Origin: a virus
Taxonomy: Duplodnaviria > Caudoviricetes
Direction: 5' to 3' (one strand)
Length of the DNA stretch: 64,000 nucleotides
IMG/VR virus record: IMGVR_UViG_3300020247_000002
Coordinates: 1 to 64,000 of that record
Shown: one piece after another, positions 71 to 63,794 of the stretch
How positions within the stretch are numbered: the stretch's first letter is position 1
Layout: every line of letters starts with the position of its first letter
Translations under genes and position numbers: made by a program
Notes under the pieces: model-generated
Database searches by the model: none
What the model was told of the DNA's origin: nothing
Seen by the model: only the letters and a program-made list of their open reading frames with translations

Positions 71-829
71 ATGGCTAAAGGATTTACAGTAAAAGCAAAC
101 GCTCCCAAGACTAAGAAGGTTGAGGATGATTTTAATCTTGAGGAAGCGAAGGCATTAGCAAAAGGAAAAGCGATCGTCTTCTGTCTGCCTGGCAGAGGCG
201 TGTCATATATCTTCCTCAAGAACTTTGTTCAACTTTGTTTTGACCTCGTTCAGAATGGATCTTCAATTCAGATCAGTCAAGACTACTCATCTATGGTTAA
301 CTTTGCACGTTGCAAGTGCCTAGGTGCGAACGTATTGCGTGGACCTGACCAAGTTCCTTGGGATGGTAAACTCAAGTACGACTGGCAACTCTGGATTGAC
401 TCTGATATCGTCTTTGATACAGAGAAGTTCTACCGTTTGGTTTGGATGCAGAAAGATATTGCTGGCGGTTGGTATTGCACAGAGGATGGAAAGACCACTT
501 CAGTGGCACATTGGTTGGAAGAAGAGGACTTTGCCAAGAATGGTGGGGTTATGAATCACGAAACCATTGAATCTATCTCTCGTAGACGCAAGCCTTTCAC
601 AGTTGACTACACTGGATTCGGTTGGTTGCTCATCAAGAACGGTGTATTTGAACATAAGGAGATGAAGTATCCTTGGTTTGCACCTAAAATGCAAGTCTTT
701 GACTCAGGTGAAGTCCAAGATATGTGTGGAGAGGACGTTTCATTCTGCTTAGATGCAAAAGAAGCGGGTATGGAGATCTGGATTGATCCTAAAATTCGCG
801 TTGGACACGAGAAAACAAGGATTATCTAA
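71..829 (+). CDS. GT-A fold glycosyltransferase-like protein of the type seen in T4-like cyanophages
   Basis: 252 aa with a DxD motif (WIDSDIVF), TGFGWLLIK, GEDVSFC and a C-terminal VGHEK, resembling GT2-like enzymes. Confidence 0.6.
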   Translation: MAKGFTVKANAPKTKKVEDDFNLEEAKALAKGKAIVFCLPGRGVSYIFLKNFVQLCFDLVQNGSSIQISQDYSSMVNFARCKCLGANVLRGPDQVPWDGKLKYDWQLWIDSDIVFDTEKFYRLVWMQKDIAGGWYCTEDGKTTSVAHWLEEEDFAKNGGVMNHETIESISRRRKPFTVDYTGFGWLLIKNGVFEHKEMKYPWFAPKMQVFDSGEVQDMCGEDVSFCLDAKEAGMEIWIDPKIRVGHEKTRII

Positions 830-993
830 TGGAAACCAAGTACAAAGTAGTCGAATTGGGTACTTCTGGGTGGTGTGTAAACGATCCGAAGCAAGATGTA
901 GGTCTTACTAAGGATCAAGCACAACAAAGACTGGAGTTTTACCTTGAAGAGGGTATCTCTCCAGACCGATTACGGGCTCAAATTGATAAATAA
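829..993 (+). CDS. Small hypothetical protein (54 aa), resembles a small cyanobacterial/cyanophage family
   Basis: Read manually: ATG overlaps the upstream TAA; METKYKVVELGTSGWCVNDPKQDVGLTKDQAQQRLEFYLEEGISPDRLRAQIDK*. Confidence 0.7.
   Translation: METKYKVVELGTSGWCVNDPKQDVGLTKDQAQQRLEFYLEEGISPDRLRAQIDK
985..992 (+). promoter_or_regulatory. T4-type late promoter variant
   Basis: GATAAATA, 22 nt upstream of the ATG at 1015. Confidence 0.45.
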
Positions 994-1014
994 AAGAAAA
1001 AAAGGTAAGTAGTT

Positions 1015-1167
1015 ATGGATTCAGATCCTACAAAGTCACCATTGAATGTAGAAAGCGCTGGTTTAAAGAGTGGCAGTGTCAAAGGTCAGTACGATGTGAG
1101 TGCTCAAGCTCGCAAAAAGGCTGCCGCAAACACCAATTCTAATCAGTCTCCACTAGCTGCTGGCTAA
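1015..1167 (+). CDS. Small hypothetical protein (50 aa)
   Basis: Read manually: MDSDPTKSPLNVESAGLKSGSVKGQYDVSAQARKKAAANTNSNQSPLAAG*, with AAGGT upstream and a terminator downstream. Confidence 0.6.
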   Translation: MDSDPTKSPLNVESAGLKSGSVKGQYDVSAQARKKAAANTNSNQSPLAAG

Positions 1168-1189
1168 GATTCACTCAAAATTCTTTTAC

Positions 1190-1214
1190 AGACCCTCAAA
1201 AAGGGTCTTTTTTT
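1190..1214 (+). terminator. Rho-independent terminator
   Basis: AGACCCT-caaaa-AGGGTCT stem followed by a T run. Confidence 0.8.
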
Positions 1215-3678: not shown

Positions 3679-6600
3679 ATGACAGATATTAAAAGAGTAA
3701 AGATATCTCATTTAGTTGAGTCTCAGATTCCTGAGTTCATTAACGAAGAGTCTGCAATGTTCCAGGCCTTCCTAGATCAGTATTATCAATCTCAGGAACA
3801 TCAATCAGGTATCGTTGACTTGGCAAACAACCTTGCTGAGTACAGACAGATTAGTGCCTTCAATAATGAGACTTTAATACCAGCTACAGCTCTTGCTGAC
3901 TCTTGTTTTGCTGGTGATAGCGTAATTCAAGTTGCTTCAACAGTTGGTTGGCCAGACACATATGGTTTGTTGAAGATTGAGAACGAAATTATAACTTACA
4001 AGTCCAAAACTGCCACATCCTTTGTTGATTGTGCTAGAGGATTCAGTGGTATCGATCAAATATCAAAAGATGACGATGCCGAGTTTCTACAGTTCAGTGA
4101 AACAGTTGCAACTGCACATCCAGCTGGATCGGCAGTCTTAAATTTAAGTAATCTATTCTTACAGACATTCTTTTCAAAATTCAAGACTGAATTCTTGCCT
4201 GGATTTGAAAATAGAAGTTTTATTAGTGGAACATCTGTCACTAATATTCTTACTAGGGCAAAAGACTTCTACATGTCGAAGGGAACTGACGCTTCATACC
4301 AGATTCTCTTTAAACTTCTATACGGTGAGGATATTGAACTCCTCAAACCGATTGACAGAACTATAACTCCGTCTGCAAACGTATATTTCAAAACCAAACA
4401 CGTTTTAGTTGAAAACCTCTTTGGTGGACAACCATTAGAATCTATTGGTAACTTCTTATTCCAAGATGTTGCTGGAATTGGTACTGTAAGTGCTTCAATC
4501 TACAATGTAGAGTACAGACCAATCAATCAAGTTGACTTTTTTGAGTTATCATTGGATGCTACATCATTTGATGGCAATTTCCAAGTGCCTGGTAAGACAA
4601 AAACACTTGAGGTCATCGGTGCTGCGTCAAGTACGATTGTAGTTGACTCTACAGTTGGGTTTGGACAGTCTGGAACCCTTCTTGTAAGACCTACAAAGGG
4701 TGCTAACTTCCTAAACGTCAGTTATAACGATAAAACTATTAATCAGTTCCTAGGCGTTTCTGGGATCTCTACAGACTTGATATTTGGTGCAGATATTCTT
4801 GAAAATAAACTTGCATATGCTTATGCTGGTTTTGGTCAAACATCTATAATGCAATTTAGACTTGTGAACGTCATTGATGATGCAGATGCAAGTCAATCCA
4901 CCAATATGCAAATTGGTGACAGTCTTAAATTGCTTTCATTCGGTAAAGACTTAGGACAACAACCTCAATTCAATAACTGGATCTATAATATCCCTTCCAG
5001 TCATAATATTTCTAAAGTTAGTCAGGTAAACGTCAACACTTTCAGAATTAACATCTTCGATTCTGTTGTTTTCTACATTGATGAAGTTTTAGTCATCAAA
5101 AATCAAAATGGAGACTCTGCTCGTATTACAGTTAAAGATATTGAGTATGATGCAACCAATACTTCCAAGATTTATGCAAATACTATTGTTGTTCAGACTG
5201 CCACAACAATTCCATCTAATCCAACTGTAATTACAAAAACAGTTACTAAAGCATCTCACAACTCAGACTATTTCCCAGGCGTAGACGACTTCCCTGTTGG
5301 TATTCAGAATAGTTACTTAGACAAGAATGACGAATTCTTCTATATCACTTCTTCTGGTCTACCTAACTATCCAATCTTTGCAACTGACAACAAGGTCTTT
5401 ACAAAAAGTTCCCCAGTGGAGGTTGTAGACGGTTTTGGGACACCTTTACTCGGTGGTGGGTTTACTTATACCCTACAATCTTACGACCCCTCATTCACCG
5501 TAGGAGCGAACACTAATCAACTCCTAAATCACAACTATGTGACTGGTGATAAGATCTATTGGGACAATACAACCAATAGTGGTATCAGCACTGGTATCTA
5601 CTTTGTAACTGCTATCAACCAAACTGACTTCTACTTGTCATATAGTGGTTCTGATGTATTTGCTAAGAAATATATCGCTGTCAAGACTGATACTTCTGGA
5701 CAGTTCATCTACAAGTCAGGATGGGAGAACAAAACTCTTAAAAATCAAAAGATTCTTAGAAAGTATCCTAATTACAAGCAACAGACTTTATTCGACGATA
5801 AGAATCAAAGACAAATCAACAACAGACCTGTAGGATTGTTAGCAAACGGTGTTGAACTGTTTCCTCCTACTGTTTTTGATGAACAGATCTTCCACGGTGA
5901 CATCACAGAGATTAAAGTTACTAATTCTGGTAAAGATTATGATGTTATCACAGGACCTCCACTCGTCATCAACGATCAACAGGGAACTGGTGCTGTTGCT
6001 CATGCTAATGTGTCTGGATCTTTCAGAGAAGTTAAACTGGTTACTCCTGGCATCGGATATCAGGAAAAACCCAAGATTACTGTTACTGGTGGTAACGGAA
6101 CTGGTGCCGTCCTTGAGTCTAACTTAGTCAGAGGTCGTATCGTAGCTAACTTTAAGGCTGACGGTACATCTGTTGATACATTTGATGAAAGTATCACTTT
6201 CCAAATAAGACATAACTTTGAATCTGGAGAAGGTATTGTATATGACTCTAGAGGTAACACTCCTATCGTTAATATTGTTGATGGATCAACATATTACGCT
6301 GGTGTCATCAATGAGAAGACAATCAAGTTACATAAGACACCCGAAGATGCAAAAGCAGGCATCAATACTGTAAATATCGGAAATATCAGTTTTGGTTTCC
6401 ACAGTCTAACAACTGTGCAAGCGAAAAACACAATTACTAGGATCTACGTCAAAAATTCTGGGTCTGGTTACTCAAACAAGAAAGTTATCATTCAAGGTAG
6501 ACCAACTAACGGTGATGTGCAGTCAGGTATCAGCACATCAGACGATTACGTTCTTGCATTTAATCATAACTTCAATAATGGTGAGATTATTGAGTATTCT

Positions 6601-9600: not shown

Positions 9601-12600
9601 GATTGGCCTAAAAAGACCTTCTATAACTTGACTCCTGTTGTCCCTTCCGACGCTAGAAAGTTATATGGATCTTCTGATATGGATGTTACAGGTAGAAACA
9701 ACATAACATTCAAAAATGTCGTTCTTAAGACTGATCATGAAATTATCAGAAAAGATGATAAGACATTTACCTTCAACTTGAAAGAAAAACCAACTGCACC
9801 TCAAAGACTCATATCTAGAGTCGGTGTAAGTACAATCACATATAGCACTGCTTCTAAGAACGCTAGAGGACCTATTGCATCTACAAAGATCAATTTCCCA
9901 GGCAAAGGATACACTGTTCTTCCTAAAGTCATTGGTTTTGCTAGTACACAGGGTAGAGATGGTATTGTTAAAGTTTCATCTCCTGAGATTGGTCAAATTG
10001 ACATTATTGAAAGAATCAAAGATGGATTTGACTATCCTACTGATCCTACTCTACTTCCCTTCCTAAGTGTCCCTGCAATCGTTGATATCAGCGGTATTGC
10101 AAGGATGGATGAGATTCAAGTGGTTGATGGTGGTACAAGATACAATCAACCTCCTACACTTGCAGTTCGTGGTAATGATAAAGTAAAAATTGCTGCAACT
10201 GTAAAAGGTGGATCTGTTGATAAGGTTGATATCATTGAAAACGCTTTTGAGTTCAGTGAACCACTCAGTGTTATTACAACCAATAACTCAAATGGTTATG
10301 ACATTGATGCCATAACTCATAGTGGTACAAGTGTTACAGTTGAACTTCTTTTAGACCCACAGTTCAACCTTCCCGTAACAACAGGCTTTGCATCTACAGA
10401 TGTTAAGTTGCCATTTGATGTTGGTGATAAGGTATTTGTTGAGAACTGTAGAATCAAACCATCTTCACTTGCAAATGGAGAGGGCAATTTCAACTCTTCT
10501 GACTATGACTTCTCATTCTATACAGTTACAGGTGTAAACACTACAAATTCTACTGTTACATTTGATATGGGAAATGCTCCTGGCATTTCTACTGTCACCC
10601 TTGGTTCTTACGATGACGATTTCACTTTAGGATCTATTGTGAACTTCAATGATATGGCGAAGTTCAACATGACAATCATTGATGATGCTAAGTTCCTATC
10701 TGGTGAAAAAGTCACATCTACTAGATTTGAAGGATTTGTTGCAGAAGGTGGTTGGAAAGGTAATATTAGTCAACTTAGATTGAGAGACACTATTGGAACT
10801 CTTAGATCTGGCGACACATTGGTTGGTGAGGTATCTGGTTTAGTAGGTAATGTAAGAGATGTAAACAGATTTAGTGTTAGAACAACTCTTGGTGTTACTA
10901 GAGATAAGGTCACTAAGAATGACATGAACGTTGGTATCCTCAACGATTTCAGTCAGAGATTATCGGATAACTTCTACTTCCAGAAGTTCTCATACTCAAT
11001 CAAGAGCAGACTTCCATATAACACATGGAAAGAGTCTGTAAGATCTATTGTTCACCCATCTGGATTCTTAGAGTTCTCAGATTTAATTGTTGAGAGTGAT
11101 CCTAAAGATAACCTCGATACATCAAAGTTACCATCTAATCTGATTGGTTATGTAGATGGTAAACCATACAGCGGACCATATCATGTACATACGAGAGCTG
11201 ATGGAACACAGGTGAGAATGGTTGGTGCTGCACATACAAGCACACCACACAAACTCATATATCCTTACCCTCCTACCATGAAGGTCAAGGCTGTCGATAC
11301 TAAAGTTGATCTCATCTTAAACATTGATAATGAGATTTACATGGGTAAGAGATCCAACTTTGCCATGGTAACTGAGGATGATCAATTACCAAATGGTTCA
11401 GTGCAGAGAATCTTCTTCCCAGAAGGTAGACCAATTAAGAGTTTCATCATGAACAAGACTAACAAAGTCTTGAACTTAGATGATATCTCCTCTGGTTTCA
11501 ATGGTTCTCATGACAGAACAGGAACATTAGTTGGTAGTAAACAGTTCTCACTCTCTGTGGGTGGTGAACCTGTATTTAAGAAGTCATATAATGCTGCAGC
11601 AACTGCCAATGTTGATCTTGCATTGAACATCATTAGTATCCAGAATCATAACTTCCAGACTGGCCAGACTGTGCTTCTCGACACTCAAGGCGGTTCTAAG
11701 ATTGGTATTGCAACTACATCTCACACTACAGGAACTAAAGATATCATCATGGCTGCTAAGGCATCTGGTGTTGGTGGTAGTGCAATGTTTGAAAATGGAT
11801 ATAATGTTCAGATTCCAGGTCCTGTTACAGGAACCGCAGTGACAGAAAATCCTCCAGGCTCACTCTTTAGGATATATGGATTTGGAAATCCCAATGGTGG
11901 ATTACCTGGCATATCAACTAGAGGTAGTGGTGCTACATTCCAAGTTAAGTTTGATTTTGATCAAACCACTGGTCAATGTATATCTACCGCAGTTACTCTA
12001 ACTAATGGTGGATCTGGATACTTTGTTGGAGATGTAGTAAGTATTGCTGGAACCGATTTAGGTGGTACAAATCCTGCTAACATTCTTTCATTCCCAGTTA
12101 CAAAAGTTACTGGTACAAGAACAGGTGTTCAGACATCGTATCTTAACGTTCCATCGACAAACAATGGATCTGGTTCTGGTGCAATATTCAATATCACTAG
12201 AGATGGTAACTTGGATGTTACCGACATAGGTATTGTTTCTGGTGGTACTGGTTATGCCTCCACTAACGTTATCTCCATTGCTGGTACATATATTGGTGGT
12301 GCTACACCTACAGATAACATCTTCTTAAGTCCAGTTGAACTTGGAACTGATGTGATGCCTGATGAATTGTTTATTCAGAAGGTTGATGATGTTAAGTTCA
12401 GAATCTCTGGTTTATCTACATCATTACCATTCCAATTTACAGGTCTAGGAACTGGAACTCACTTACTCAAGGTTGCTGATCCAAACAAACAGGCCTTGAT
12501 TATGATTGATAATATTATTCAAACTCCTATCAAGAACAAGAAGTTAGGAGTAGAGGTCTCTGACCCAGTTGGACCAAGTGATCAGGGCATTGCAATCGGT

Positions 12601-12819: not shown

Positions 12820-12820
12820 C

Positions 12821-12828: not shown

Positions 12829-12849
12829 AAGAAAAAACGTTTTTAAGTA

Positions 12850-13885: not shown

Positions 13886-16800
13886 ATGTCAACAAGAGTC
13901 ACGCCAGGATCAGGAGCTCTACTAAGACCGTCTTTTAACTCATTGTATGGAGTAGTCCAAGTTGAAGTTTTAGACGGTGGTACAGGATACGCTGCAACAG
14001 ATCCCCCAAAGATTACCATTGAAGGAACAACCACACCTTTAACAGAGGGTGTGTTTTTTCCTATAATTAGTGGTGTCGGAACGATATCGGAAGTTATCAT
14101 CTTCAATACTGGAGTAGGGTATTACCCAGTGTTCAGTACGTCTACACAATCTCAGGTTGTTGTAGAGAGGGGTGCTTTTGGTACTCTCTCCACTAGTCAT
14201 ACTGTTGGTACTGCATATTCTGTTTTCACTGGTGACTATAACATCATTGATGATAATATCTTCTTTACTGATGCACCATATGGTCAAGCAGGACCTATTG
14301 GATTGCAAACAAGTTCTTCTTTTGCTGGTAGATTATTCTCTAGAAAATTAGACCCATTTGATCCAGCAGATAAGAACGTAATTCTTGATGATATTGCACT
14401 AGAATTTACAGGTGTTGCAGGTACACAGTTTGACTTGTCAGAAAACCTTGGTGTAGTAACTTCTCTGTACAACAGTGTAAACACAGGTGTTGACATTAAC
14501 AACAATCCGTTTATTTTGATAAACAACGTTGTTCAAACGCCTGGTCTTGACTTTGAGATTGTTAATAATGCAGATAATAAGATTAACTTCCTGAGTGGAG
14601 TTCCTAGAGCTGGAAGAATTAATAAAGTTGGATTACAGACTGGTTCAGGATATTACTTACCCCTGAAAGCTGCAGCTAGAGTTGGTGTTGGATCAACAGG
14701 TAGTCTTCAGTTTATTCAACTAGAAGGAAAGGGACAAGGATATAGAAACCCACCTAAAGTCACTGTAAGGTCTTCACAAGGTTTTGGTGCAAGTATTACT
14801 GCACATTTGGGTACATCTGCTGGATCGGCAGTTGCCATCTCTACAGCGGATTATAACCAGTTCACAGGTGTCTGTACATTTGTTACTGGTGGTACATCTC
14901 ATGGATTTGTTGAGAATGATTTAGTTAGAATTACAGGTGCTGGATTTACATTTACTCCTGTCTCTGCACTGAGAAATATAAACACATTTGGGTATGATTA
15001 TGTAACTGGTATCGCAACTATTGGAGTATCAGGTGGCCACTATATTGGAACTGCAACTAATAGAAGTAGAAATTTACTTGTAAAAGAAGTTCAAGTTACA
15101 GATGGCATATCTACAAGTTTATTCAGAGAAGACGCATATCCTATTGTAGAAGTAATTGACAGTCTCAATGTATTAGTAGATTGCGGTGTCAGTACGATAC
15201 CACTAGCCTATGTTAGCGGAGGATTAGTGCGAGCAGGCGTTGATACCGCAATCATGGAAGGTAGAAACGTCATTGGTTTTGATGTTCTTAGTGGACACAC
15301 TACAAACACGTTCAGAGCGTTCGTTGGTGTCTCTACATTCCCACATCAATATGTCGGTGGTGGTGTTGTAAACAGAGCTGAAGCTGGAATCGTTACAAAC
15401 TTCACTATTGATAATGGTGGAACAGGATTCTTTGGTGCCAAGACTGTTGGATTCCTTGAAGGAACTCCTGTAAATGGTATTACAACTGTTACTGCATTTG
15501 GTAACAAGAGTGGAGACGAGAAGAATATAAATGCAGTCGATTATGACTTTGTTTCTGGTATCGCTACGATTACCGCAGCATCTGCTCATGGATTGACAAC
15601 TTCCAACGTTGTTAAAATAACTGGTATCGCATTTAGCACTGGAATTGGTGATATCATATTCCCTTCAAACGCAAACAGATACTTTGGTGTTGTAGGTGTA
15701 ACAAGTACACTTAATTTCCAAGTAAATATCGGTGCTGCAATGACAACCACTGGTATTCATACTGCAAATGTTGGTGCTGGTATTGGTTCATTCATACCTT
15801 ACGAAGGTCATGGATTGGAGACTGATGATTTTGTGAACGTAACTGGTATTGCGGTTACATTTGCAAGTGCTCCATCTGTTCGTGTTGGTGGTGCAGAATA
15901 TGATGAAACATCTGGTATTGCAACCATCTTTACAAGAGATAGACACAACCTTACAGAAGACGATTGTGTAATACTTTCTGGTATCGCATTTACTTGCGAT
16001 TATGACCCTGCATTGAATGTATCAATGGCTCAGTACAGTAACGTAACAGGAGTTATGACTGTTACTACTGCCGCACCTCATGGATACAAATTAGGTAAAG
16101 ATGTTATATTATCTGGTCTTGCATTTACATGTGCGTTAGACGGTGGTACTAGACAACATTACTACCCAAGAAGTAGATCCACTGCATACGATACATCTCT
16201 ACCTATTACAGGTTATGCTGGCACTGCACTTGCAATAGATGTTGGTGCTGCACCTCCTAAAGATCAATACACTCACTTATTCTCAGAAGCAATCAATGGT
16301 GCTTTAGTTTACGGTGGTGACTATGATCATACCTTTATTCGTGCAATAGATGGTGCATTACTTACTGGAGGACCTTTTGCACATTCCTTCATCGGTGCAA
16401 CTGCAACATCTACCTTTGCAGGCGGTGATTATGCACACACATATGTAAGTTCTGATGAAAAGACTATCAAGACTGGTGGAGACTATGCACACACCTTTGA
16501 TAGTGCTGTCAGCAATGCAATCCTTGTTGAAGGTGGTGGAGCGTTTACTCCTACTAATGCTGATTACGTTCCTACTACTGGTTCACTAATTGTAACTGTT
16601 GATGGTCATGGATTAACAGGACCTAGTCAACATTCACTTACAACTGCCAATTACAACCCGATTGTCGGTATCTTAACTATCACTGTTCCTAATCATGGAT
16701 TCTCAAATGGTGATCAAGTTTTAATTGCAGATAATTCTATAGGTTGGAAGTGTTCACTTGATGGATTTACTACAACCAAATATTATCCACGAACCACTGA

Positions 16801-24539: not shown

Positions 24540-27500
24540 ATGCCACAAAATACCAACTTAAACTCATCTCCATACTTTGATGACTTTAATGAGTTAAAAA
24601 ATTATCAGAGGGTACTATTCAAGCCAGGTTTACCTGTACAGTCTAGGGAACTCACAACACTTCAATCTATTCTACAGAATCAGGTTGAAAAATTTGGTAA
24701 GCACTTCTTCAAGGAAGGTTCTGTTGTTATCCCAGGCCAGATTGCATACGATAACGAATACACTTGTGTTCAGATTGATGACAGTCACTTAGGTATTCCT
24801 GTTTCCGTCTACCTAGACAACTTGATAGGTAAAAAAATTAAGGGTGAAACTAGTGGTGTTACCGCTAAAGTAGAAACATATATTACAAACAGAACATCAG
24901 TAAAAGGAGCATATACTCTTTACATCAAGTACAACAGTTCCAGTGATACTGATTTCTCAAGAAAGACATTTGCAGATGGAGAAAATTTATTACTAGAAGA
25001 GGACATGAACTATTCTCTGTCTAGTATTAGACAGGGTGCTAGTTTCGCAACAACACTTATCTCAAATGCAGTTGCTACAGGTGCTGCAGCAAAGATTGCC
25101 CAAGGTGTCTATTTCATCAGAGGTTTCTTTGTTACTGTTGCTGACTCCACAGTAATTTTGGATCAGTATAACAACAAACCATCATACAGAATTGGTCTTC
25201 TAATCAAGGAAGAACTTGTAACTGCGTCTGCATCAGATAACGACTTGTACGATAATGCAAGAGGTTTCTCAAACTTTGCGGCGCCTGGTGCAGATAGATT
25301 CAAACTATCAACAACCTTAATCAAGAAGTCTCTCACAGATTTGAATGATGAGAACTTTGTAGAATTGATGAGAGTTGTAGATGGTGTTCTACAAAAATTC
25401 GTAAAACCTGGCGCTGATAACTATAACTTAATTCGTGATGAACTTGCAAGAAGAACATACGATGAATCTGGTCACTACTATGTAAAACCATTCCCTCTCG
25501 TAGCTAAGGAATGTCTTAATGACAGAACAGGAAATGACGGTGCATTTTATCCTAATCAATTAACTCAGCAGGGCAATGTTCCTAGTGAGGATTTGATGTG
25601 TTTATCCATCGGACCTGGCAAGGCATACGTTAAAGGATATGAGATTGAAACACTCAACACAACTACTGTTGATGTTCCAAAACCAAGAGACACTGCAAAG
25701 ATTGTTAATGAGTCTTTACCGTTTAGTGTTGGTAGACAAATTGAAGTAAACAACGTTTATGGTTCTCCTCTACTTGGTATCAGCACAAGTTCTTATGTAA
25801 AACTATTCAACGAAAGAACCTCTACTGTTGGTACATCAAACGGTGAACAGATTGGTGTTGCTAGAGTCTATGATATGAAGTTGAAGAACGTTGGTTATGC
25901 CGACTCTTCTACAGTGTTTGAGACATCTCTGTATGACATTCAGACGTTCACATATCTACAATTAAACACTGGGACAACTGTACAGTGTCCAACCTATGTT
26001 ACTGGTCAAAATAGTAACGCTACAGGATACGCATATACTTCTGCAAATAATTCAACACAATTAACTTTATATCAAGTTAACGGACAATTCCAAGTTGGTG
26101 AAGAATTATTCTTCAATGGTTTTACTTCAAATAGAAGTATTACTGAGGTAGAAGACTACGGTGTAGAGGATATTAAACAACTTGTTAGTAATGATCCTAC
26201 AAACTACCCTTTCACAGCTGACCCTGTTCTAGGATTAGGTCATCTGATTGCTCCTATTGCAACACAGTTTACTGTTAGTGCAAACTCTGGTTCTGCATCT
26301 ACAATCACATCTCCTAGTGCAAGTTTCGTAAACTCTGGTATTAAGACTGGAGATATCATTCAGTATAGTATTTCAGGCAACTCCGTTCCTACATTTAACA
26401 GAGTTACTAATACATCTGCTGTTGCTATCAGTCTTGAAGCTACTGTAGATGTTGAAAATGTATGTTCTGGTGCATTACCTACCTCTGCCGTATCTGCAAA
26501 CGATCTGTTCAAGGTTACTTTAGAAGTTCAAAACAATTCACAAGCATTCTTGTTTAGTGAATTAACTAAACCTAATGTTGCATCTGTTGAATTGAACGGT
26601 GCAGATATCATATTCAAGAAATCCTACAACGTTACAGTTTCAAGTAATGCTTTTAGTGGAACTTTAGAAACTGATGCTGATTTGACTCTTGAACCATTTG
26701 ATGAAGAGGATTACAACCTTACATTTAAGACATCTGGTACAGTTGAATCATTAACGGATCAAAAACTTACAGTCAGTGGTAGAACTGTAACCTTATCTGG
26801 TTTAGACACTGCTTCTGGTGCTGCTGTATTGACAGTTACTTGGAAGAAGGTAAATGTCAAACCAAAATCAAAAATATTCAAAAGAGCAACAACATATACT
26901 TTAAACAAGTCCTCGAAAACCCAGTCAGGCACTGGATTAATGAAGTTAAATGATGGACTTACTTATGACACAACATTTGGTAATAGAGTTCAAGATGATA
27001 GACTTTCTCTTGGAGTTTGTGATGTTGCAGAAGTTCTTGCTGTATTAGAATCTTCATCAACTGCTGATCCTCAGTTCCCAATCTTACAACTTACTAATCT
27101 AAACTCCAACATTCTTAATGCGGTAGTTGGTGAGAATATTGTTGGTAAAACATCTGGTGCATCTGCTGTATTTGTTGCTACCAATGGATCCAATGAAGTA
27201 AGTTTTGTATCTCAAAATGAAAATGCTTTTGAGATTGGTGAAGAGATCATTTTTGAAGAAACCAAAGTTGCTGGTACAGTTCAGACCTTTATTCCAGGCG
27301 ACAGAGACATCAAGAATAACTATGAGTTTGATCCAGGCCAAAGATTGGATTATGTTGACTTCTCTGCACTTGTAAGAAAATCTGGTACAGAAGCACCTAC
27401 TAGAAGAATCACTATCGTCTACAATAACTTTGTTATTGATGAAGCAGATCCAGGCGATTTTGTGACTATAAACTCTTATGAGAAAAAGTATTACAAAGGC

Positions 27501-43000: not shown

Positions 43001-44466
43001 GTGTTATCTCATCTGGTTTCTCAACTGATGAAGTTCCAAGAACTGCACAAGTCTTCGGTGACATGATGGAAGTTCAAGGTACAACTAAGGCTGGAACAGT
43101 TTCAGTTGGTGCTACCATGTTCGGACAAACATCTAAGGCAACTGCATGGTTCTTGAACGATCAGATTTCTGCTGATAAGATTTACTTCAAGTATCAGTCT
43201 GGTTACGGTAACGCTGGTATCGGTACAACTGGATTCGTAGACGGTGAAATCGTCTGGTTCGGTGCTGGTGCAGAACAGAGTTCTGGTATCGGTTCGATCA
43301 CAGTTGGTGCGGCTGCATCTTCCACAACTGGACAAAAAGGTACAATTCTAGAAGTTGACCAAACATCTGGAACACTTCTAATCGGTGATGCTATTGGATT
43401 CCAAACATCACTATATGGTGCAGATGATAGATTCTACATCATTAACACAATTACGGGCGTATCCGTCGCATCCACTTTCTTTGAGTGGCAGGCAGGATCG
43501 GGTGCTGGACAACAAGTTGTCTACAATAATCGTGCAACTCTGACAATCTCTCCTGAGAAATCAAGAGGAACATGGGATACTAGAAACTTAGGTTCTGGTC
43601 AAGGATCTGATATTCAAATCAGAACACTGTTCTCACAGGCAAGACTAACAGGACATGACTTCCTCGCAGTTGGTACTGGTAACAAGACTGAAACTGGATA
43701 TCCAAACGTCAACTTGGCGAACGTTATCCAAGGTCAAGAAACTAACGTGTTCGGACCTGGTAAGGTGTTCTTCGTATCTACCGACCAAGGTGGTAACTTC
43801 CGAGTTGGAGACTTCTTCTCCGTTGACCAGTTGACTGGTCGTGCTACATTGGATGCTTCCGCGTTCAACCTTTCTGGTTTGACAGAATTGAGACTTGGTG
43901 CGATTGGTGGTCAGGTTGGTGAGGCGATCAACGAATTCTCCTCTGACGAGACACTCGCTGGTAACTCTAACACTGCATGTCCTACAGAATTTGCGGTTAA
44001 GGGATTCTTAACTCGCGGTTCAATGGGTATCAAGGCAATGACACCTCCTGTTGGTACAACTGCTCAAAGACCAGGCGGTATCGACGACGAGTTCAACACT
44101 GGTGCGTTGAGATTCAACACTACCTTGGGTGCTCTTGAGTACTACAACGGTACTTCATGGATTCAGCCTGGTGTTAAGACATACAGTACAGTTTCCTCAA
44201 GTACATCTGTAACTTCTGGAGTTACATACTTTGTTAACACAGGTGGTGGTCAGGTAACATTGACCTTGCCTGGATCACCTAACTTAGGTGACGAAATTAC
44301 TTTCATGGACGTTGCGAAGACATTTGATTCTAACGCACTTGTATGTGGAAGAAACGGTAGACCAATTCAAGGTGACAATGCTGACTTGACAGTTTCAACT
44401 GAAGGTGCTGCATTTACCCTCGTTTACTCTGGTTCTACATACGGTTGGAGAATCTTCTCCATCTAA
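40027..44466 (+). CDS. Tail fibre-like protein with N-terminal CBM5/12 (ChtBD3)-like repeats
   Basis: 1479 aa; about 6 W....Y...D.V.YGG..Y repeats; GHDFLAVGTG, STDQGGNFRVG, INEFSSD..L motifs; GGAG ribosome-binding site. Confidence 0.8.
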   Translation: MAEFRLGRVKFNWTGDWTTSKAYLIDDIAKFGGNTYVAIENHTSTASVSDFYANDLSKWNVHIEGLEQKGQWQAGVYYRINDLVKFGNVVYRVTTAHTSEGTFIDATKVSEYVKGFQNEGEWDQNNEYQSGDVVNYNGSSYVALTTSLAGFQPPQYLGVSTDPAAKWSILSDGLAGAASTYTEGTYYRGDLVQYGGNIYRHKIGITTNVSPLQVGLGSIFPEGYQGGQVWDLLVKGFDFKGGFSTTFNYHPGHVARYGSDSYVSIGNSHKNVIPIAGIGTFWEVLASGDSSAALNTKGDLLTYNSGNVRIGIGSTGYALAVQSNGLPGYEIVGNQTRIYYVDSEDGLDTYNGLAPNLAFKTIKKACEAARPKTDITNMVYTASTGVATVTAPGHGLLNTGTFVQLQDIEFECLSGGNVFTVLGMTYNKAVGLATITAIGLGAAPEVGIGATVRIRNLSVQYQGSAQFAHTFQSALANAIQSGGDYSHTFNSCAPNGVQVVGGSAVTPTSATYDPSNGNFIMTLTGHSLSTSDKVTIADNAFTFTCTMNNNGSQKTYPRPGKDPAQGQQLSITGTTTDTFTVNVGPSPIVNHQPSAVSYNQATGDMVCTIGAHALTVGTSVRLETDGMTFRCSMDGYTTDHSYPRAVAGDGNPDPAYNTALNITAVTTNTITINVGTASDDQTITGKFPAVHTQGTYEFLVQAVPDSNSITLNVGVSTTDYLYVSGGTAFVGLTTTIYPDKVAKSYYEVLEVPDVDNFKVNVGISTINHTYVEGGKVTDLTPAILKLSASQFYEQLPVTVPPFTSIVGNALRGSQVLPKDGTSDDSVTPNNRSHMFKMSDATTIQAISMKGMEGFYYDPNAPLQLDNANLRTGIGTTAAGVFISLNPDSPIDNKSPYVKDCTCFSDPATESGRFGGGGVGVFIDGGVHDTGAKSMVFDAFTHVASDGAGYILDKGAIAEIVSCFTYYAKWGYYSGGGSRIRGVGGNNSYGDYGVISSGFSTDEVPRTAQVFGDMMEVQGTTKAGTVSVGATMFGQTSKATAWFLNDQISADKIYFKYQSGYGNAGIGTTGFVDGEIVWFGAGAEQSSGIGSITVGAAASSTTGQKGTILEVDQTSGTLLIGDAIGFQTSLYGADDRFYIINTITGVSVASTFFEWQAGSGAGQQVVYNNRATLTISPEKSRGTWDTRNLGSGQGSDIQIRTLFSQARLTGHDFLAVGTGNKTETGYPNVNLANVIQGQETNVFGPGKVFFVSTDQGGNFRVGDFFSVDQLTGRATLDASAFNLSGLTELRLGAIGGQVGEAINEFSSDETLAGNSNTACPTEFAVKGFLTRGSMGIKAMTPPVGTTAQRPGGIDDEFNTGALRFNTTLGALEYYNGTSWIQPGVKTYSTVSSSTSVTSGVTYFVNTGGGQVTLTLPGSPNLGDEITFMDVAKTFDSNALVCGRNGRPIQGDNADLTVSTEGAAFTLVYSGSTYGWRIFSI

Positions 44467-54792: not shown

Positions 54793-54940
54793 ACATAGTT
54801 GTCCTGATATTGAATACTTGGGAGAAGAAGAAGATAAGGATGGAGAGTTGAAACACCTCTATCGTATCGGAGAGCATAAAGTATTTCATGATCAAGTTCA
54901 TGAATTAGAAATGGAAGTCATAGATGAAGACGAAGATTGA
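54728..54940 (+). CDS. Small acidic hypothetical protein
   Basis: ORF track gives 54698; a more likely start is ATG 54728 after GGAGAAG; MEKLSIGKADLMHHRLQAWLRE...; overlaps both neighbours. Confidence 0.65.
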   Translation: MEKLSIGKADLMHHRLQAWLREHSCPDIEYLGEEEDKDGELKHLYRIGEHKVFHDQVHELEMEVIDEDED

Positions 54941-55631
54941 ATATATTTTTAGAGTAGATGGATCTGATATCTTCTACACGCCAGAAACAAATGGTGGTGG
55001 AGATTACTTCTTTCCAGAATATCTAAACTTAGTTCTAGAAAACTATGGCAGAGTTCATCATCTCATGGAATGGTGTAGTGGACCTGGATTTATAGGTTAT
55101 GGAATGATGGCAGCTAATGTTTGCGATCAACTAACTTTGTTGGATAAATTTGAACCAGCAGTAGAGATAGCAAAGAAGACTGCTGAGAATTCATTTATAA
55201 AACATGGATTAGATCTTATAGATGTAGAAACTGTATATCACAGAAGAGTCTTTCCTCGTACAACAATATATCATTCTGATACTTGTTCGGTGTTATCTGA
55301 TCACAAAATAGATCTAGTTGTAGGCAATCCTCCCCATTTTGAGTGTAAAGAAGATGCAATAAAAGCTTTGAGTAAGTTAGGTGGGACACCCCTGTTTGAT
55401 AATCACCTGTCAGAAATTTTGTTAGATGCAAATTGGGATGCTCATAGAGATATGTTTAATGAACTATCGACAAGACTCTCAGATAATGGTACAATATGTT
55501 TACAACTTCACTCAGGTGGATCTAGTGCTGATACATTTAGATCAATGGTTGAGGAAGCTGGCTTGAGAATTACTGCAACCTTCAATAGTGTTCAGTATGA
55601 TGACATTTATTACATGGAGGTCAAGAAATGA
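54924..55631 (+). CDS. Class I SAM-dependent methyltransferase (NPPx motif, PrmC/small-MTase-like)
   Basis: MEWCSGPGFIG motif I and DLVVGNPPHF. Confidence 0.8.
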   Translation: MKTKIEYIFRVDGSDIFYTPETNGGGDYFFPEYLNLVLENYGRVHHLMEWCSGPGFIGYGMMAANVCDQLTLLDKFEPAVEIAKKTAENSFIKHGLDLIDVETVYHRRVFPRTTIYHSDTCSVLSDHKIDLVVGNPPHFECKEDAIKALSKLGGTPLFDNHLSEILLDANWDAHRDMFNELSTRLSDNGTICLQLHSGGSSADTFRSMVEEAGLRITATFNSVQYDDIYYMEVKK

Positions 55632-62005: not shown

Positions 62006-62008
62006 ATA
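62001..62008 (+). promoter_or_regulatory. T4-type late promoter variant
   Basis: TCTAAATA overlapping the gp14 stop, upstream of gp15. Confidence 0.55.
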
Positions 62009-62029
62009 GTTTCATAAAGTGCTAATATT

Positions 62030-63112
62030 ATGTTAACGAATCACTTCTATCATGAGATTATTCGGAAGACAATCGTGTCTTTTGGAACACTCTTTAATAA
62101 TATAGAAATACAACATACTGACAAGTCAGGAAAGACAGTCAGTGTTATAAAGGTGCCAGTGTCGTATGGACCTCAGCAGAAATTTTTAGCTAGAGTGACT
62201 CAAGGTAGAGATTATCAAGATGGTGTTGGTACAACACTTACTCTACCAAGGATGTCTTTTGAAGTGGTTGGGATGAATTATGATTCGACAAGAAAGGTAT
62301 CAACTATGCAATCTTTCAAGTCGGTCAATAAGAAGACTAAAAATCTTGTTAAGACATTCATGCCAGTTCCATATAACATCAATATGCAACTGAGTATCCT
62401 TGCAAAATTGAATGAGGATGCGATACAGATTTTAGAACAGATACTTCCTTACTTCCAACCAGCATTTAATCTTACTATTGATTTGGTAGATATCATTGGA
62501 GAGAAAAGAGATATGCCTATCACTCTGGAGGGGATCCAGATGGAAGATAACTATGAGGATGACTTCCTCACCAGAAGAGCATTAGTATATACGTTATCGT
62601 TTGTTTGTAAGACATACCTATTCGGACCTGTTAACAACAGTAGTGACGGACTTATCAAGAAAGTACAGACAGATTACTATTCAGAGACACAAAACATCAA
62701 GATCGCAACAAGGCAACAAAGATATACTGCTGTTCCTATTGCAGTCCAAGATTACAATACAGATGACACCGCTAGAACAAATGAGGTTATTGATACCACA
62801 GTAACGGAATTTAATGTCAACAGTGCAACTCCATTCAATAAAGGTGATTACATACAAATTGATGATGAGAAGATGTTGATTAGAGGTGTATCTGGAAATA
62901 GACTAACAGTTAAGAGAGGTGAGTTTACTAGTGAAATTGTAGCACATGACATAAATATTCCTATAAATGTTATCAATGCTCAAGATGATACTCAAATCAT
63001 CGAAAGGGTAGTTGAGTTTGGTGATGATTTTGGATTCGGTGAAACTGTCACAGATTACAAATCAGATGGAACTATCTACTCTGAGAGCCAAAGTAGGGAC
63101 GTTGAAAAATGA
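62030..63112 (+). CDS. gp15: Tail sheath stabiliser/completion protein (T4 gp15-like)
   Basis: FYHEIIRKTIVSFGTLFNNI, VPVSYGPQQKFLAR, LPRMSFE, QILEQILPYFQP. Confidence 0.95.
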   Translation: MLTNHFYHEIIRKTIVSFGTLFNNIEIQHTDKSGKTVSVIKVPVSYGPQQKFLARVTQGRDYQDGVGTTLTLPRMSFEVVGMNYDSTRKVSTMQSFKSVNKKTKNLVKTFMPVPYNINMQLSILAKLNEDAIQILEQILPYFQPAFNLTIDLVDIIGEKRDMPITLEGIQMEDNYEDDFLTRRALVYTLSFVCKTYLFGPVNNSSDGLIKKVQTDYYSETQNIKIATRQQRYTAVPIAVQDYNTDDTARTNEVIDTTVTEFNVNSATPFNKGDYIQIDDEKMLIRGVSGNRLTVKRGEFTSEIVAHDINIPINVINAQDDTQIIERVVEFGDDFGFGETVTDYKSDGTIYSESQSRDVEK

Positions 63113-63546
63113 TTGAAGATGAGAACTTCGACTCTATAGATGAGGCACTAGAGGTTTCTTCTGAAATAATACAGAAAGAACCTGTTGCCAAACCTACAAG
63201 AACTAGTCCTAAACACCTCAAGTCTGATGAAGAAGACGTAGAGAAGGACTACAAATATAGTAGAGCTCAGTTGTATTCTTTAGTAGAGAAAGGTCAAGAG
63301 GCAGTGGACGGTGCATTAGATGTTGCACAACAGTCTGACTCTGCAAGGGCGTATGAGGTTGCTGGTCAACTTATCAAACACGTTGCAGATACAGCAGATA
63401 AACTAATTGATCTCCAGAAAAAAATGAAGGACATTGATGAGGTCAAAGAAAAGAATACTACCAATGTTACTAATAACTCTTTGTTTGTAGGAAGCACTGC
63501 TGACTTACAAAAGATGTTAAAACAAATGAAAAAGGACACCAAATGA
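63109..63546 (+). CDS. gp16: Terminase small subunit (T4 gp16-like)
   Basis: DYKYSRAQLYSLVEKGQEA, RAYEVAGQLIK, NNSLFVGSTADLQK. Confidence 0.93.
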   Translation: MIEDENFDSIDEALEVSSEIIQKEPVAKPTRTSPKHLKSDEEDVEKDYKYSRAQLYSLVEKGQEAVDGALDVAQQSDSARAYEVAGQLIKHVADTADKLIDLQKKMKDIDEVKEKNTTNVTNNSLFVGSTADLQKMLKQMKKDTK

Positions 63547-63794
63547 AAAGTTTCAAATCAATCAACGAAGAAGGTAACTGGCAGAGATTGAATAAGTATG
63601 GTGCAACCTATACTATTACTTTTCAATTTAGAGGACAGACTAAGTTCATTCAGATGTTTTTTCCTCAAAGAGCACGACCCTTAAAAAAGAATGTTCAGTA
63701 TGAATTGAACAAAGTATATCCAGGCAGTAAAGTCTTATACTTTGATGCCAGTGACAAAGACCCTACGAAACCCCTATTAGTAATTGACGCATAA
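63543..63794 (+). CDS. Hypothetical protein
   Basis: 83 aa between gp16 and gp17; QMFFPQ...V...L.KVYPGSKV. Confidence 0.75.
   Translation: MKSFKSINEEGNWQRLNKYGATYTITFQFRGQTKFIQMFFPQRARPLKKNVQYELNKVYPGSKVLYFDASDKDPTKPLLVIDA

What the first reader, a model, noticed from the sequence alone, without database searches (positions are those of the whole stretch)
186..63726. Window-wide rule: unavoidable CCNGG sites are always flanked as GCCWGG/CCWGGC or overlap GGWCC
Seen: Pro-Gly necessarily creates CCNGG. I traced about 77 Pro-Gly dipeptides by hand. All use CCA or CCT. About 74 either use the otherwise uncommon Gly codon GGC (cca ggc, cct ggc) or follow a G-ending codon, often a rare one (acg cca gga ~13902, gcg cct ggt ~25281, tcg cca ggt ~45452). 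The three exceptions (~11815, ~43753, ~55080) are all GGACCTGG or its reverse complement. I noticed only two CCWGG outside Pro-Gly (both obey the rule) and no CCGG. Known: ScrFI/SsoII-type enzymes cut CCNGG, and GGWCC methylases of the SinI/AvaII type modify the inner C, which here is the outer C of CCWGG. Inference: a host nuclease targets CCNGG, and the phage keeps only sites masked by an overlapping modification in GC/GCC and GGWCC contexts. That would be a codon-level footprint of an anti-restriction DNA modification whose enzymes are not in this window.
Basis: partly seen in the sequence, partly recalled or inferred. Interest (0 to 1): 0.85.

Follow-up and report, generated by a model that had tools for sequence, protein, structure and literature searches.

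The report
Flank rule at unavoidable CCWGG sites
In this marine cyanophage and its whole clade, every CCWGG that a Pro-Gly codon pair forces into the DNA is kept only with a G before it or a C after it (or inside GGACCTGG), which looks like the footprint of an unidentified host DNA-cutting defence with very precise context rules.

Summary
The window (a T4-like cyanomyovirus contig, 89% identical to Synechococcus phage S-SSM7) has 80 CCWGG, 0 CCGG and 0 CCSGG. 77 of the 80 are GCCWGG or CCWGGC, and the other 3 are GGACCTGG or its complement. Across the 92-kb contig, unflanked HCCWGGD occurs 3 times, against 97.8±6.0 in codon shuffles.

The rule is an all-or-none trait of a broad marine clade. 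In 1.19 Mb of rule-keeping sequence, 806 of 823 distinct sites are flanked, 16 overlap GGWCC and 1 breaks the rule. 100 related loci ignore the rule, with about 82% of sites unflanked. The flank base is under strong purifying selection, and the 8 CCGG sites left in the clade obey the same flank rule.

CCSGG absence follows automatically from CCGG absence. Two complete rule-keeping genomes encode no C5, N4/N6 or Dam methyltransferase and no DpdA; their only DNA-modification gene is Mom.

My best reading is a restriction-avoidance footprint in a lineage that must avoid both CCGG and CCWGG, leaving only the flanks free to change. I could not resolve whether the flank effect comes from the nuclease's own 7-bp specificity or from an overlapping modification. 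No host enzyme was identified, though a vsr–dcm–Mza-like island occurs in 2 of 401 picocyanobacterial genomes.

The parts
186..63726 (.). 80 CCWGG sites. 77 are in frame as Pro-Gly (CCA/CCT + GGN). 77 of the 80 sites are flanked by a 5' G and/or a 3' C. The window has no CCGG and no CCSGG.
11815..11822 (+). Unflanked site CCAGGTCC (reverse complement GGACCTGG), reading Pro-Gly-Pro. It is conserved as an unflanked site in S-SSM7 (65580).
43753..43760 (+). Unflanked site inside GGACCTGG (Gly-Pro-Gly). It is conserved in S-SSM7 (97507).
55080..55087 (+). Unflanked site inside GGACCTGG, within the MTS-domain ORF. It is conserved in S-SSM7 (110512). 7 of the 13 relative loci each carry one unflanked, GGWCC-overlapping site, presumed but not aligned to be this same one.
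13904..13908 (+). Example of the 5' solution: aCG CCA GGA, where a G-ending codon precedes Pro. Sites 25284 and 45455 are of the same type.
24624..24628 (+). Compensatory switch between relatives: GCCAGGT here and ACCAGGC at the orthologous S-SSM7 site.
3762..3766 (+). Out-of-frame CCWGG (frame 2) that still has a 3' C. Sites 18478 and 45513 are the other out-of-frame sites, and both are flanked.
54924..55631 (+). MTS-domain methyltransferase-like ORF (PF05175, GNPPHF motif). I considered it as the masking enzyme and rejected it, because it is absent from the complete rule-keeping genome G402.

Best explanation
The pattern is a restriction-avoidance footprint. This cyanomyovirus clade has been purged of CCGG, so Pro-Gly must be written CCW-GGN, which makes CCWGG unavoidable. 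A second DNA-cutting activity in its natural hosts attacks CC(W)GG. The only freedom left is the flanking base, and selection has fixed a 5' G or a 3' C at essentially every site.

I think the most likely mechanism is that the attacking enzyme's effective target is the 7-bp H-CCWGG-D (and H-CCGG-D). It would be read as two half-sites that must both be acceptable for a double-strand cut, as in the CCGG/CCNGG enzyme family, whose members differ in outer-base specificity. Sites inside GGACCTGG would escape because the flanking A:T pair is modified there. The clade's own Mom-type adenine-modifying enzyme is the only candidate found.

Shown: the rule, its statistics, its clade distribution, purifying selection on the flank base, and the absence of canonical phage DNA methyltransferases.
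Inferred: the existence of the nuclease, its flank selectivity, and any role for Mom.
For: The depletion is specific and near total.
- HCCWGGD 3 vs 97.8±6.0, with all nine H..D flank pairs depleted.
- Flanked non-Pro-Gly sites sit near expectation (8 vs 11.4), so the 6-mer is not positively selected. Unflanked non-Pro-Gly sites are 0 vs 30.7.

One good flank is enough.
- Flank classes are 65 '..C', 26 'G..', 8 both. This fits a symmetric two-half-site cutter.
- No further specificity appears upstream of the G.

The rule is actively maintained.
- The third base of GGC after Pro differs between the contig and S-SSM7 in 3 of 62 codons, against 67 of 137 for other GGC codons and 21% at four-fold sites.
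- 20 of 20 lineage-specific new sites are flanked, and there is one G..→..C switch.

The trait is discrete.
- 51 rule-keeping loci vs 100 rule-ignoring loci, with none in between among loci that have at least 6 sites.
- Rule-ignoring portal loci have 723 of 882 sites unflanked.

The double constraint is visible in relatives.
- 23 of 76 rule-ignoring loci lack CCGG but keep unflanked CCWGG.
- One locus (L058) has 0 CCWGG but 19 CCSGG and 29 CCGG, the opposite escape route.

The same flank rule holds for CCGG: 8 of 8 remaining CCGG in the clade are flanked, vs 58 of 192 in rule-ignoring sequences.

The clade has its own avoidance profile (CGCG, TTCGAA, CACGTG, TACGTA, CTGCAG, GAATGC), which points to a distinct host range. 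The CCWGG rule persists in G402, where CAATTG and GGSCC avoidance are relaxed, so it has its own agent.

There are no canonical phage MTases.

The host family does carry relevant systems.
- An AgeI homologue beside a C5 MTase (PDB 5dwa, E 1e-29).
- A vsr–dcm island whose MTase is 50% identical to E. coli Dcm over about 377 residues, followed by MzaB/C/D/E-like genes.

Mom and GGACCTGG.
- Mom is present in both complete rule-keeping genomes and absent from the complete rule-ignoring genome G405.
- G-A-C-C-T fits the Mu Mom consensus S-A-S-N-Y. That consensus is recalled, not retrieved.
Against: - No nuclease with this specificity was identified, and none is known to me.
- EcoRII-C (PF09019) was found in 0 of 401 picocyanobacterial genomes. 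No control genome rang either, so sensitivity is unproven.
- The Dcm-like island is in only 2 of 401 genomes, and 400 kb of one such host shows no CCWGG depletion or flank bias.
- A single enzyme cutting both CCGG and CCWGG is hypothetical.
- S-SSM7 and the contig have no CCGG at all, not even flanked ones, so a separate flank-insensitive CCGG pressure must also be assumed.
- The Mom idea is weak. The exemption needs GG before the A: 16 GGW vs 0 HGW halves, although HGW-only sites are twice as common in rule-ignoring phages (217 vs 111). The recalled Mom consensus does not predict this.
- 5 of the 16 exempt contexts (GGTCCTGG, GGACCAGG) do not fit the consensus.
- Cyanophage DSL-LC03 has Mom (65% identical) and ignores the rule, with 27 of 35 sites unflanked.
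- The Mom–rule association rests on 2 vs 1 complete genomes and is confounded by relatedness.
- The shared flank rule at two different cores (CCGG and CCWGG) also fits a core-independent GCC-context modification, which is the rival explanation.
Confidence: 0.4

Rival explanations
1. A plain CCWGG (and CCGG) nuclease is blocked when the outer C is modified on at least one strand, and the phage DNA carries modifications in GCC/GGC and GGWCC contexts. The modifications would be made by host methyltransferases or by a non-canonical phage enzyme, and only maskable sites are kept.
For: - One protected strand is enough, as expected if hemimethylation blocks cutting.
- The same G/C flank rule applies to two different cores, CCWGG and CCGG (8 of 8). 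A core-independent GCC-context mark explains this most simply.
- GGWCC overlap exempts sites (16 of 17 unflanked contexts), and the inner C of GGWCC is the outer C of CCWGG.
- C5 MTases occur in 44 of 401 genomes of the host family, one of them beside an EcoO109I-like (GGNCC-family) nuclease.
- From recall: GpC-specific phage C5 MTases linked to TET enzymes, and a GGC motif for DpdA in phage CAjan, are published precedents.
Against: - Two complete rule-keeping genomes have no C5, N4/N6 or Dam MTase; S-SSM7 and the contig, the only records searched, have no TGT/DpdA or Tet_JBP.
- The lineage-restricted MTS methyltransferase is missing from G402.
- Host C5 MTases are sporadic (11% of genomes), so a phage arriving from another host could not count on the mark.
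- AGCT, GCGC and GGSCC, which contain GC/GCC, are strongly avoided, so no general GC-context protection shows.
- G-flank enrichment is seen only for CCAGG and CCTGG.
- A symmetric GGWCC methylase should protect GGTCCTGG as well as GGACCTGG, yet the unflanked ratio is 11:3 against 17:48 in rule-ignoring phages.
- S-SSM7 and the contig keep no GCCGG/CCGGC at all.
Confidence: 0.3
2. Methylation avoidance. A host CCWGG (Dcm-type) methyltransferase marks phage DNA, and a methylation-dependent (Type IV) nuclease in the next host cuts it. Flanks are chosen so that at least one strand is not methylated or not recognised.
For: A Dcm-like MTase with Vsr exists in the host family. The one-flank-is-enough logic could reflect a need for full methylation.
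Against: - It needs an MTase or reader that rejects a G flank absolutely.
- The known reader motifs I recall (McrBC R-mC, the MspJI family) either ignore this flank or would favour the opposite base.
- It does not explain the same rule at CCGG or the GGACCTGG exemption.
- No test was run.
Confidence: 0.07
3. Self-avoidance. The clade encodes its own sequence-specific nuclease to destroy host DNA, and it has purged the nuclease's sites from its own genome.
For: - The trait is clade-specific, and so are 104 ORFs shared by S-SSM7 and G402 but absent from the rule-ignoring pool, among them a 505-aa HNH endonuclease.
- The purge is almost absolute (1 violator in 823 contexts).
Against: - Acquiring such a nuclease before purging about 200 sites would be suicidal, whereas a host nuclease gives stepwise benefit.
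- HNH genes in T4-like phages are usually homing enzymes (recalled).
- The GGACCTGG exemption would still need a separate cause.
- No specificity evidence exists.
Confidence: 0.06
4. The pattern is not a DNA-level constraint. It reflects translational codon-pair preference at Pro-Gly, or a mutational bias such as 5mC deamination.
For: Pro-Gly is a slow peptide bond, and codon-pair biases exist (recalled).
Against: - The 5' G of the preceding codon substitutes for GGC (22 of 25).
- Out-of-frame sites obey the rule (8 of 8 non-Pro-Gly sites flanked).
- Close relatives with the same proteins use GGT/GGA freely (82% unflanked).
- Deamination would remove the inner C and says nothing about flanks.
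Confidence: 0.02

Closest known systems
Restriction-site (palindrome) avoidance in phage genomes
   Same: Short restriction-type words are depleted against a codon-preserving null (CCGG 0 vs 77, TTCGAA 0 vs 32, CAATTG 0 vs 41, ATGCAT 0 vs 24). The profile is lineage-specific.
   Different: Here the core site cannot be removed, because two avoided words collide at Pro-Gly. Avoidance moves to the flanking bases and becomes an either/or codon-pair rule. I found no printed description of this (searches; listings only).
CCGG/CCNGG-family Type II endonucleases (EcoRII-C, PspGI, Ecl18kI/SsoII, AgeI, BsaWI, Cfr10I, NgoMIV, PfoI, SexAI); names and specificities recalled
   Same: They are dimeric enzymes that read CC:GG half-sites, cut just 5' of CC next to the flank base, and differ in outer-base specificity. 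An AgeI homologue with a C5 MTase is present in the host family.
   Different: No member with 'not-G' outer specificity (H..D), or with dual CCGG/CCWGG action, is known to me. EcoRII-C was found in 0 of 401 host-family genomes. No enzyme was tied to this phage.
Blocking of restriction by overlapping methylation (for example dcm-blocked AvaII at GGWCCWGG; recalled)
   Same: GGWCC/CCWGG overlap is exactly the context of the exempt sites, and one modified strand would be enough.
   Different: No methylase for GGWCC or GCC was found in the phage genomes. The exemption favours GGACCTGG over GGTCCTGG, which a symmetric GGWCC methylase does not predict.
Phage Mu Mom (adenine N6-methylcarbamoylation)
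   Same: A clear Mom-family protein is found in S-SSM7 (PF25680, E 2.5e-32) and in G402. A Mom homologue was reported in S-SCSM2R, the isolate that paper places closest to S-SSM7 (PMC12801897, passages read). GGACCTGG contains G-A-C-C-T, which fits the recalled Mu consensus.
   Different: Mom is not on the 92-kb contig. It cannot explain G/C flanks, which contain no adenine. The GG requirement is not in the consensus. DSL-LC03 has Mom but not the rule.
Cytosine-methylase-linked Mza-like defence islands (MzaB/C/D/E; GHKL ATPase, Z1, PD-(D/E)XK, AIPR)
   Same: vsr–dcm–MzaBCDE-like clusters lie beside an integrase in two picocyanobacterial genomes. mzaABCDE is called a validated defence system in PMC9523054 (passage read).
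   Different: Specificity and mechanism are unknown. The cluster occurs in only 2 of 401 genomes, and there is no link to this phage's hosts.

Membership tests
Restriction-site avoidance footprint | The word is depleted against a null that keeps protein sequence and codon usage | tested here: met
   HCCWGGD 3 vs 97.8±6.0; CCGG 0 vs 77.3
Restriction-site avoidance footprint | The constraint acts on DNA regardless of reading frame | tested here: met
   Non-Pro-Gly unflanked sites 0 vs 30.7, flanked 8 vs 11.4. A 5' G from the previous codon substitutes in 22 of 25 cases.
Restriction-site avoidance footprint | A cognate nuclease is present in the hosts | tested here: inconclusive
   EcoRII-C in 0 of 401 genomes, with no positive control. 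C5 MTases in 44 of 401. AgeI-like, EcoO109I-like and Dcm–Vsr–Mza-like loci were found, but none is tied to this phage or to the flank rule.
Phage-encoded anti-restriction cytosine/guanine modification (C5 MTase, N4 MTase, TET, DpdA) | The phage genome encodes the modifying enzyme | tested here: not met
   PF00145, PF01555 and PF02086 are absent from S-SSM7, G402 and the contig. PF01702 and PF12851 are absent from S-SSM7 and the contig.
Phage-encoded anti-restriction cytosine/guanine modification (C5 MTase, N4 MTase, TET, DpdA) | Modified bases are present in virion DNA at GCC/GGWCC | not testable with these tools
   Needs LC-MS, bisulfite/EM-seq, or SMRT/nanopore data.
Mom-type adenine modification | A Mom-family protein is present | tested here: met
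   PF25680 in S-SSM7 (112.6 bits) and G402 (111.2 bits). It was not found in the 92-kb contig itself, which is about 39% complete.
Mom-type adenine modification | Mom presence goes with the rule | tested here: inconclusive
   Present in 2 of 2 complete rule-keepers. Absent from the 1 complete and 5 partial rule-ignoring records. DSL-LC03 has Mom and ignores the rule.
Type III restriction logic (inverted asymmetric sites) | The remaining sites all point the same way | tested here: not met
   Both orientations are common: 26 'G..' and 65 '..C' in the contig.

The most novel reading that the evidence does not exclude
The flank rule is a sequence-level readout of an uncharacterised picocyanobacterial defence that senses unmethylated CC(W)GG only when neither flank is G(5')/C(3'). 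That defence could be a new outer-base specificity class in the CCGG/CCNGG nuclease family, or a Dcm-linked Mza-like system. The clade's Mom enzyme would have a GGACC-type specificity that shields the few sites it overlaps. If so, phage codon-pair statistics alone would give the full recognition grammar of a defence nobody has assayed, plus the first sequence specificity for a non-Mu Mom.
Probability: 0.15. Interest if true: 0.8.

Novelty: new variant of a known kind. Interest (0 to 1): 0.66.

Why it matters
Restriction avoidance is usually seen as missing words. Here two avoided words collide at an indispensable dipeptide, and the genome shows what the enemy enzyme cannot cut, with almost no noise: 806 of 823 sites, and all-or-none across clades.

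That gives a testable 7- to 8-bp grammar (H-CC(W)GG-D cut; GCC.., ..GGC and GGACCTGG spared) for a defence or modification system in the ocean's most abundant phototrophs. It provides a simple marker that splits marine cyanomyoviruses into two groups, which probably differ in host range. It also shows that synonymous and codon-pair choices in phage structural genes can be fixed by host immunity rather than by translation.

Tried and rejected
MTS-domain methyltransferase in the window (54924-55631; PF05175, GNPPHF, PDB 9l4q homologue E 2.5e-31).
- It looked promising. It matches only 8 of 50,697 phage records, and all 13 viral contigs carrying it keep the rule (120 CCWGG, 7 unflanked, all GGWCC-type).
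- I rejected it as the cause because the 99%-complete rule-keeper G402 lacks it. P-SSM2, with a 30%-identical homologue, ignores the rule (29 of 32 unflanked).

Mom as a full explanation. An adenine-centred motif cannot give a rule that is symmetric in G/C flanks. CCAGGT, a recalled Mu Mom site, is purged.

Union of SexAI-, PfoI- and PasI-like palindromic 7-mers. Rejected because non-palindromic flank pairs are purged too.

Type III logic. Rejected.

Positive selection for CCWGGC as a signal. Rejected because there is no excess outside Pro-Gly.

General GCC effect on other CC-starting words. None found. CCWWGG and CC-N3-GG show only a modest shift, which I judged (not separately tested) to match the general GCC/GGC composition difference between the pools.

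Host genome signature. 400 kb of G191 (Dcm–Mza host) and 400 kb of control G003 show no CCWGG depletion or flank bias.

Gene-content contrast. 104 S-SSM7 ORFs are shared with G402 and absent from the rule-ignoring pool, which is too many to single one out. Pfam on 10 of them gave DruA-like, DUF6267 and DUF4385 hits and 7 with no hit.

Literature.
- No paper on a GCCWGG/CCWGGC rule or on cyanophage CCWGG avoidance turned up (listings and abstracts only).
- 9L4Q was not found in print.
- Karambelkar 2020 (PMC7261163) has no consensus statement in the searched passages.
- Hattman 1980 is not held, so the Mu Mom consensus is recalled.
- Supplementary files were not opened and may hold host-range or gene tables relevant to S-SCSM2R and S-SSM7.

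Tools not used: structure prediction, complex prediction, sequencing-run tools, the search for homologous proteins and the representative search.

Full report
WHAT THE WINDOW IS. The window is the first 64 kb of a 91,897-bp viral contig. It belongs to a T4-like cyanomyovirus and is 89% identical in nucleotides to Synechococcus phage S-SSM7 (88.9% over 90,449 aligned positions). It carries baseplate, tail-fibre and neck genes, a sugar-metabolism cluster and very large structural ORFs. GC content is 39%.

THE OBSERVATION. The window has 80 CCWGG, no CCSGG and no CCGG. 77 of the 80 sites have a G before them or a C after them. The three that have neither (11815, 43756, 55083) are all GGACCTGG or its complement. 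The 22 further sites on the rest of the contig are all flanked.

I compared the contig with 100 shuffles that keep every protein and the overall codon usage. Unflanked HCCWGGD is 3 against 97.8±6.0 (minimum 83), CCGG is 0 against 77.3, CCWGGC is 73 against 16.0, and GCCWGG is 34 against 16.1. All nine H..D flank pairs are depleted, including the non-palindromic ones.

At the codon level, GGC supplies 69 of 94 Gly codons after Pro but 154 of 2387 elsewhere. When Gly is not GGC, the codon before Pro ends in G in 22 of 25 cases, against 65 of 1077 before other Pro codons.

Sites that are not Pro-Gly tell the same story. Unflanked ones are 0 against 30.7 expected, while flanked ones are 8 against 11.4, which is close to neutral. 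So the constraint is on DNA, not on translation, and the 6-mer is not itself selected for. No further base preference exists beyond the single flanking G.

A CORRECTION. CCCGG and CCGGG both contain CCGG, so CCSGG = 0 is not an independent fact. The exclusive use of CCA/CCT in Pro-Gly also follows from CCGG avoidance. A CCNGG-specific enzyme is therefore not required.

HOW WIDE THE RULE IS. The complete S-SSM7 genome (232,878 bp) has 206 CCWGG, 0 CCGG and 10 unflanked sites, and all 10 overlap GGWCC.
- Among 80 IMG/VR loci found with the portal protein, only the four with 94-96% portal identity keep the rule. The other 76 have 723 of 882 sites unflanked, and 23 of them also lack CCGG.
- Loci found with the neighbouring carbamoyltransferase show that the rule-keeping clade is large and the trait is all-or-none. 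Counting loci with at least 6 sites, 51 keep the rule, 100 ignore it and none lies in between.
- In 1.19 Mb of rule-keeping sequence there are 823 distinct CCWGG contexts. 806 are flanked, 16 are unflanked but overlap GGWCC, and one is a true violator, in G402.
- G402 is a 99%-complete genome, 84% identical to S-SSM7. It keeps the rule (215 sites, 7 unflanked, 6 of them overlapping GGWCC) although it has relaxed CAATTG, GGSCC and partly CCGG avoidance. The CCWGG rule therefore has its own cause.
- G405, a complete relative, ignores the rule (217 of 239 unflanked).

THE RULE IS ACTIVELY MAINTAINED. Between the contig and S-SSM7, the third base of GGC after Pro differs in 3 of 62 codons. The figure is 67 of 137 for other GGC codons and 21% at four-fold sites. 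Of the sites shared by the two genomes, 86 keep the same flank class, 3 change class while staying flanked, and one of those switches from a 5' G to a 3' C. All 20 sites present in only one of the two genomes are flanked.

TWO REFINEMENTS. First, the exemption is mainly the octamer GGACCTGG. Unflanked contexts in the clade are GGACCTGG 11, GGTCCTGG 3, GGACCAGG 2 and GGTCCAGG 0, whereas rule-ignoring phages have 17, 48, 18 and 23. Both Gs are needed: there are 16 GGW halves and no HGW half, although HGW-only sites are twice as common in rule-ignoring phages (217 vs 111).

Second, the 8 CCGG sites that remain anywhere in the clade are all G- or C-flanked, against 58 of 192 in rule-ignoring sequences. 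The flank rule therefore applies to CC(W)GG generally.

WHAT THE PHAGE ENCODES. Six-frame family searches of S-SSM7, G402 and the contig found no C5 methylase, no Dam-type methylase, and no N4/N6 methylase beyond one 12-bit frame full of stops. S-SSM7 and the contig have no TGT/DpdA and no Tet_JBP.

The only DNA-modification gene is a clear Mom-family protein. It is present in S-SSM7 and G402 and absent from G405 and five partial rule-ignoring records. A paper on the related phage S-SCSM2R also reports a Mom homologue (PMC12801897, passages read). Mom alone cannot explain G/C flanks, and the freshwater cyanophage DSL-LC03 has Mom but not the rule.

The window's own MTS-domain methyltransferase-like ORF is almost confined to this clade, but it is missing from G402, so it is not required.

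THE HOST SIDE. S-SSM7 psbA is closest to Prochlorococcus sequences. I sampled 401 genomes of the picocyanobacterial family.
- EcoRII-C was not found, and no control genome rang either.
- C5 methylases occur in 44 genomes.
- Their neighbours include an AgeI homologue (E 1e-29 to PDB 5dwa), an EcoO109I-like nuclease and several GHKL ATPases.
- Two genomes carry vsr plus a methylase 50% identical to E. coli Dcm over about 377 residues, followed by MzaB/C/D/E-like genes and an integrase. mzaABCDE is described as a validated defence system in PMC9523054 (passage read).

CC(W)GG-type systems therefore exist in this host family, but nothing links them to this phage. One such host shows no CCWGG depletion or flank bias over 400 kb.

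The rule-keeping clade also has its own extra avoided words: CGCG, TTCGAA, CACGTG, TACGTA, CTGCAG and GAATGC. This suggests a host range with a distinct restriction repertoire.

INTERPRETATION. The most economical reading is restriction avoidance under a double constraint.
- Phages that face only CCGG write Pro-Gly as CCW-GGN. Many relatives do this.
- A phage that faces only CCWGG writes it as CCS-GGN. L058 does this, with 0 CCWGG, 19 CCSGG and 29 CCGG.
- This clade faces both, so only the flanks can change.

One good flank is enough, which fits a symmetric cutter that needs two acceptable half-sites, or hemi-modification. I slightly prefer intrinsic flank selectivity of the nuclease (effective target H-CC(W)GG-D), for three reasons. 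The phages lack any canonical cytosine or guanine modifier. Host C5 methylases are sporadic. No general GC-context protection is visible, since AGCT, GCGC and GGSCC are all avoided.

The shared flank rule at CCGG and CCWGG and the GGWCC-overlap exemption keep the masking model alive. The GGACCTGG bias hints at a modified flanking adenine, with Mom as the only candidate, but the GG requirement is unexplained. I rate the intrinsic model 0.40, masking 0.30 and other explanations together about 0.15. The rest is unknown.

NOVELTY. Site avoidance is well known. A clade-wide, almost error-free either/or flank rule at codon pairs, with an octamer exemption, is not described in the papers I could search. 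I class it as a new variant of a known kind.

Noticed in passing
whole contig (window 1-64000 and beyond): Many other restriction-type words are purged against the codon-shuffle null: TTCGAA 0 vs 32, CAATTG 0 vs 41, ATGCAT 0 vs 24, AGCT 100 vs 290, GAATGC 6 vs 35, ACCTGC 9 vs 57. GGTACC, CTCGAG and GTCGAC are all 0. GATC is not avoided (468 on the contig).
   Followed up: partly
whole contig: A second flank-dependent word exists. ACCTGC (9 vs 56) and TCCTGC (12 vs 50) are depleted, CCCTGC is enriched (40 vs 18) and GCCTGC is neutral (16 vs 15). The effective avoided word looks like WCCTGC.
   Followed up: no
whole contig; S-SSM7; G402: GGSCC is avoided (2 vs about 15 in the contig, 0 in S-SSM7) while GGWCC is tolerated (59 vs 74). 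GGCC survives mainly as WGGCCW. G402 has relaxed GGSCC (22) and CAATTG (19).
   Followed up: partly
whole contig: AGCT is kept at expectation only as GAGCTC (16 vs 18.1, both strands counted). S..S flanks are retained more (0.55) than W..W flanks (0.24). This is the direction expected if a Mom-type S-A-S modification gives partial protection.
   Followed up: no
window 54924-55631: A methyltransferase-like ORF with FxGxG and GNPPHF motifs, a weak PrmC/HemK-like signal, and a solved homologue 9l4q (E 2.5e-31) with no paper found. It matches only 8 of 50,697 phage records. In P-SSM2 the homologue lies between gp41 and mazG.
   Followed up: partly
S-SSM7 147240-148382 (L003:47240-48382), just beyond the contig end: A 380-aa ORF between clamp-loader genes gp44 and gp62 matches DruA/DUF4338 (Pfam E 1.4e-11; PADLOC DruA E 5e-6). 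G402 has it (91% identical), and the rule-ignoring pool does not.
   Followed up: no
L058 (IMG/VR contig, 18,097 bp held): A cyanomyovirus locus with 0 CCWGG but 19 CCSGG and 29 CCGG. This is the opposite escape route at Pro-Gly, implying a plain CCWGG pressure without a CCGG pressure.
   Followed up: no
L317 (G191:C1:338000-357999) 8234-18318; also G276: A picocyanobacterial island carrying Vsr, a Dcm-like C5 methylase, MzaB-like GHKL ATPase, MzaC-like Z1 protein, DUF4420 PD-(D/E)XK, MzaE-like AIPR, then a phage-type integrase.
   Followed up: partly
L183 (G387), L175 (G271): C5 methylases paired with an AgeI homologue (PDB 5dwa, E 1e-29) and with an EcoO109I-like nuclease in picocyanobacterial genomes. 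A recurrent roughly 690-aa C5-methylase fusion sits beside DUF6339 in many small genomes.
   Followed up: partly
window 37898, 38696, 38783: The same 13-nt context agatCCAGGcaca occurs three times inside the 1551-aa ORF (34424-39079), which suggests internal repeats in that structural protein.
   Followed up: no
L005:15141-16325 (S-SSM7 psbA): S-SSM7 psbA is most similar to Prochlorococcus psbA (85-89% amino-acid identity in the top hits), although the phage was isolated on Synechococcus WH8109.
   Followed up: no
G402:C1:230557: The single true violator found in the clade is caccacCCAGGatacca, near the contig end and about 1 kb from the Mom gene (229061-229621).
   Followed up: no
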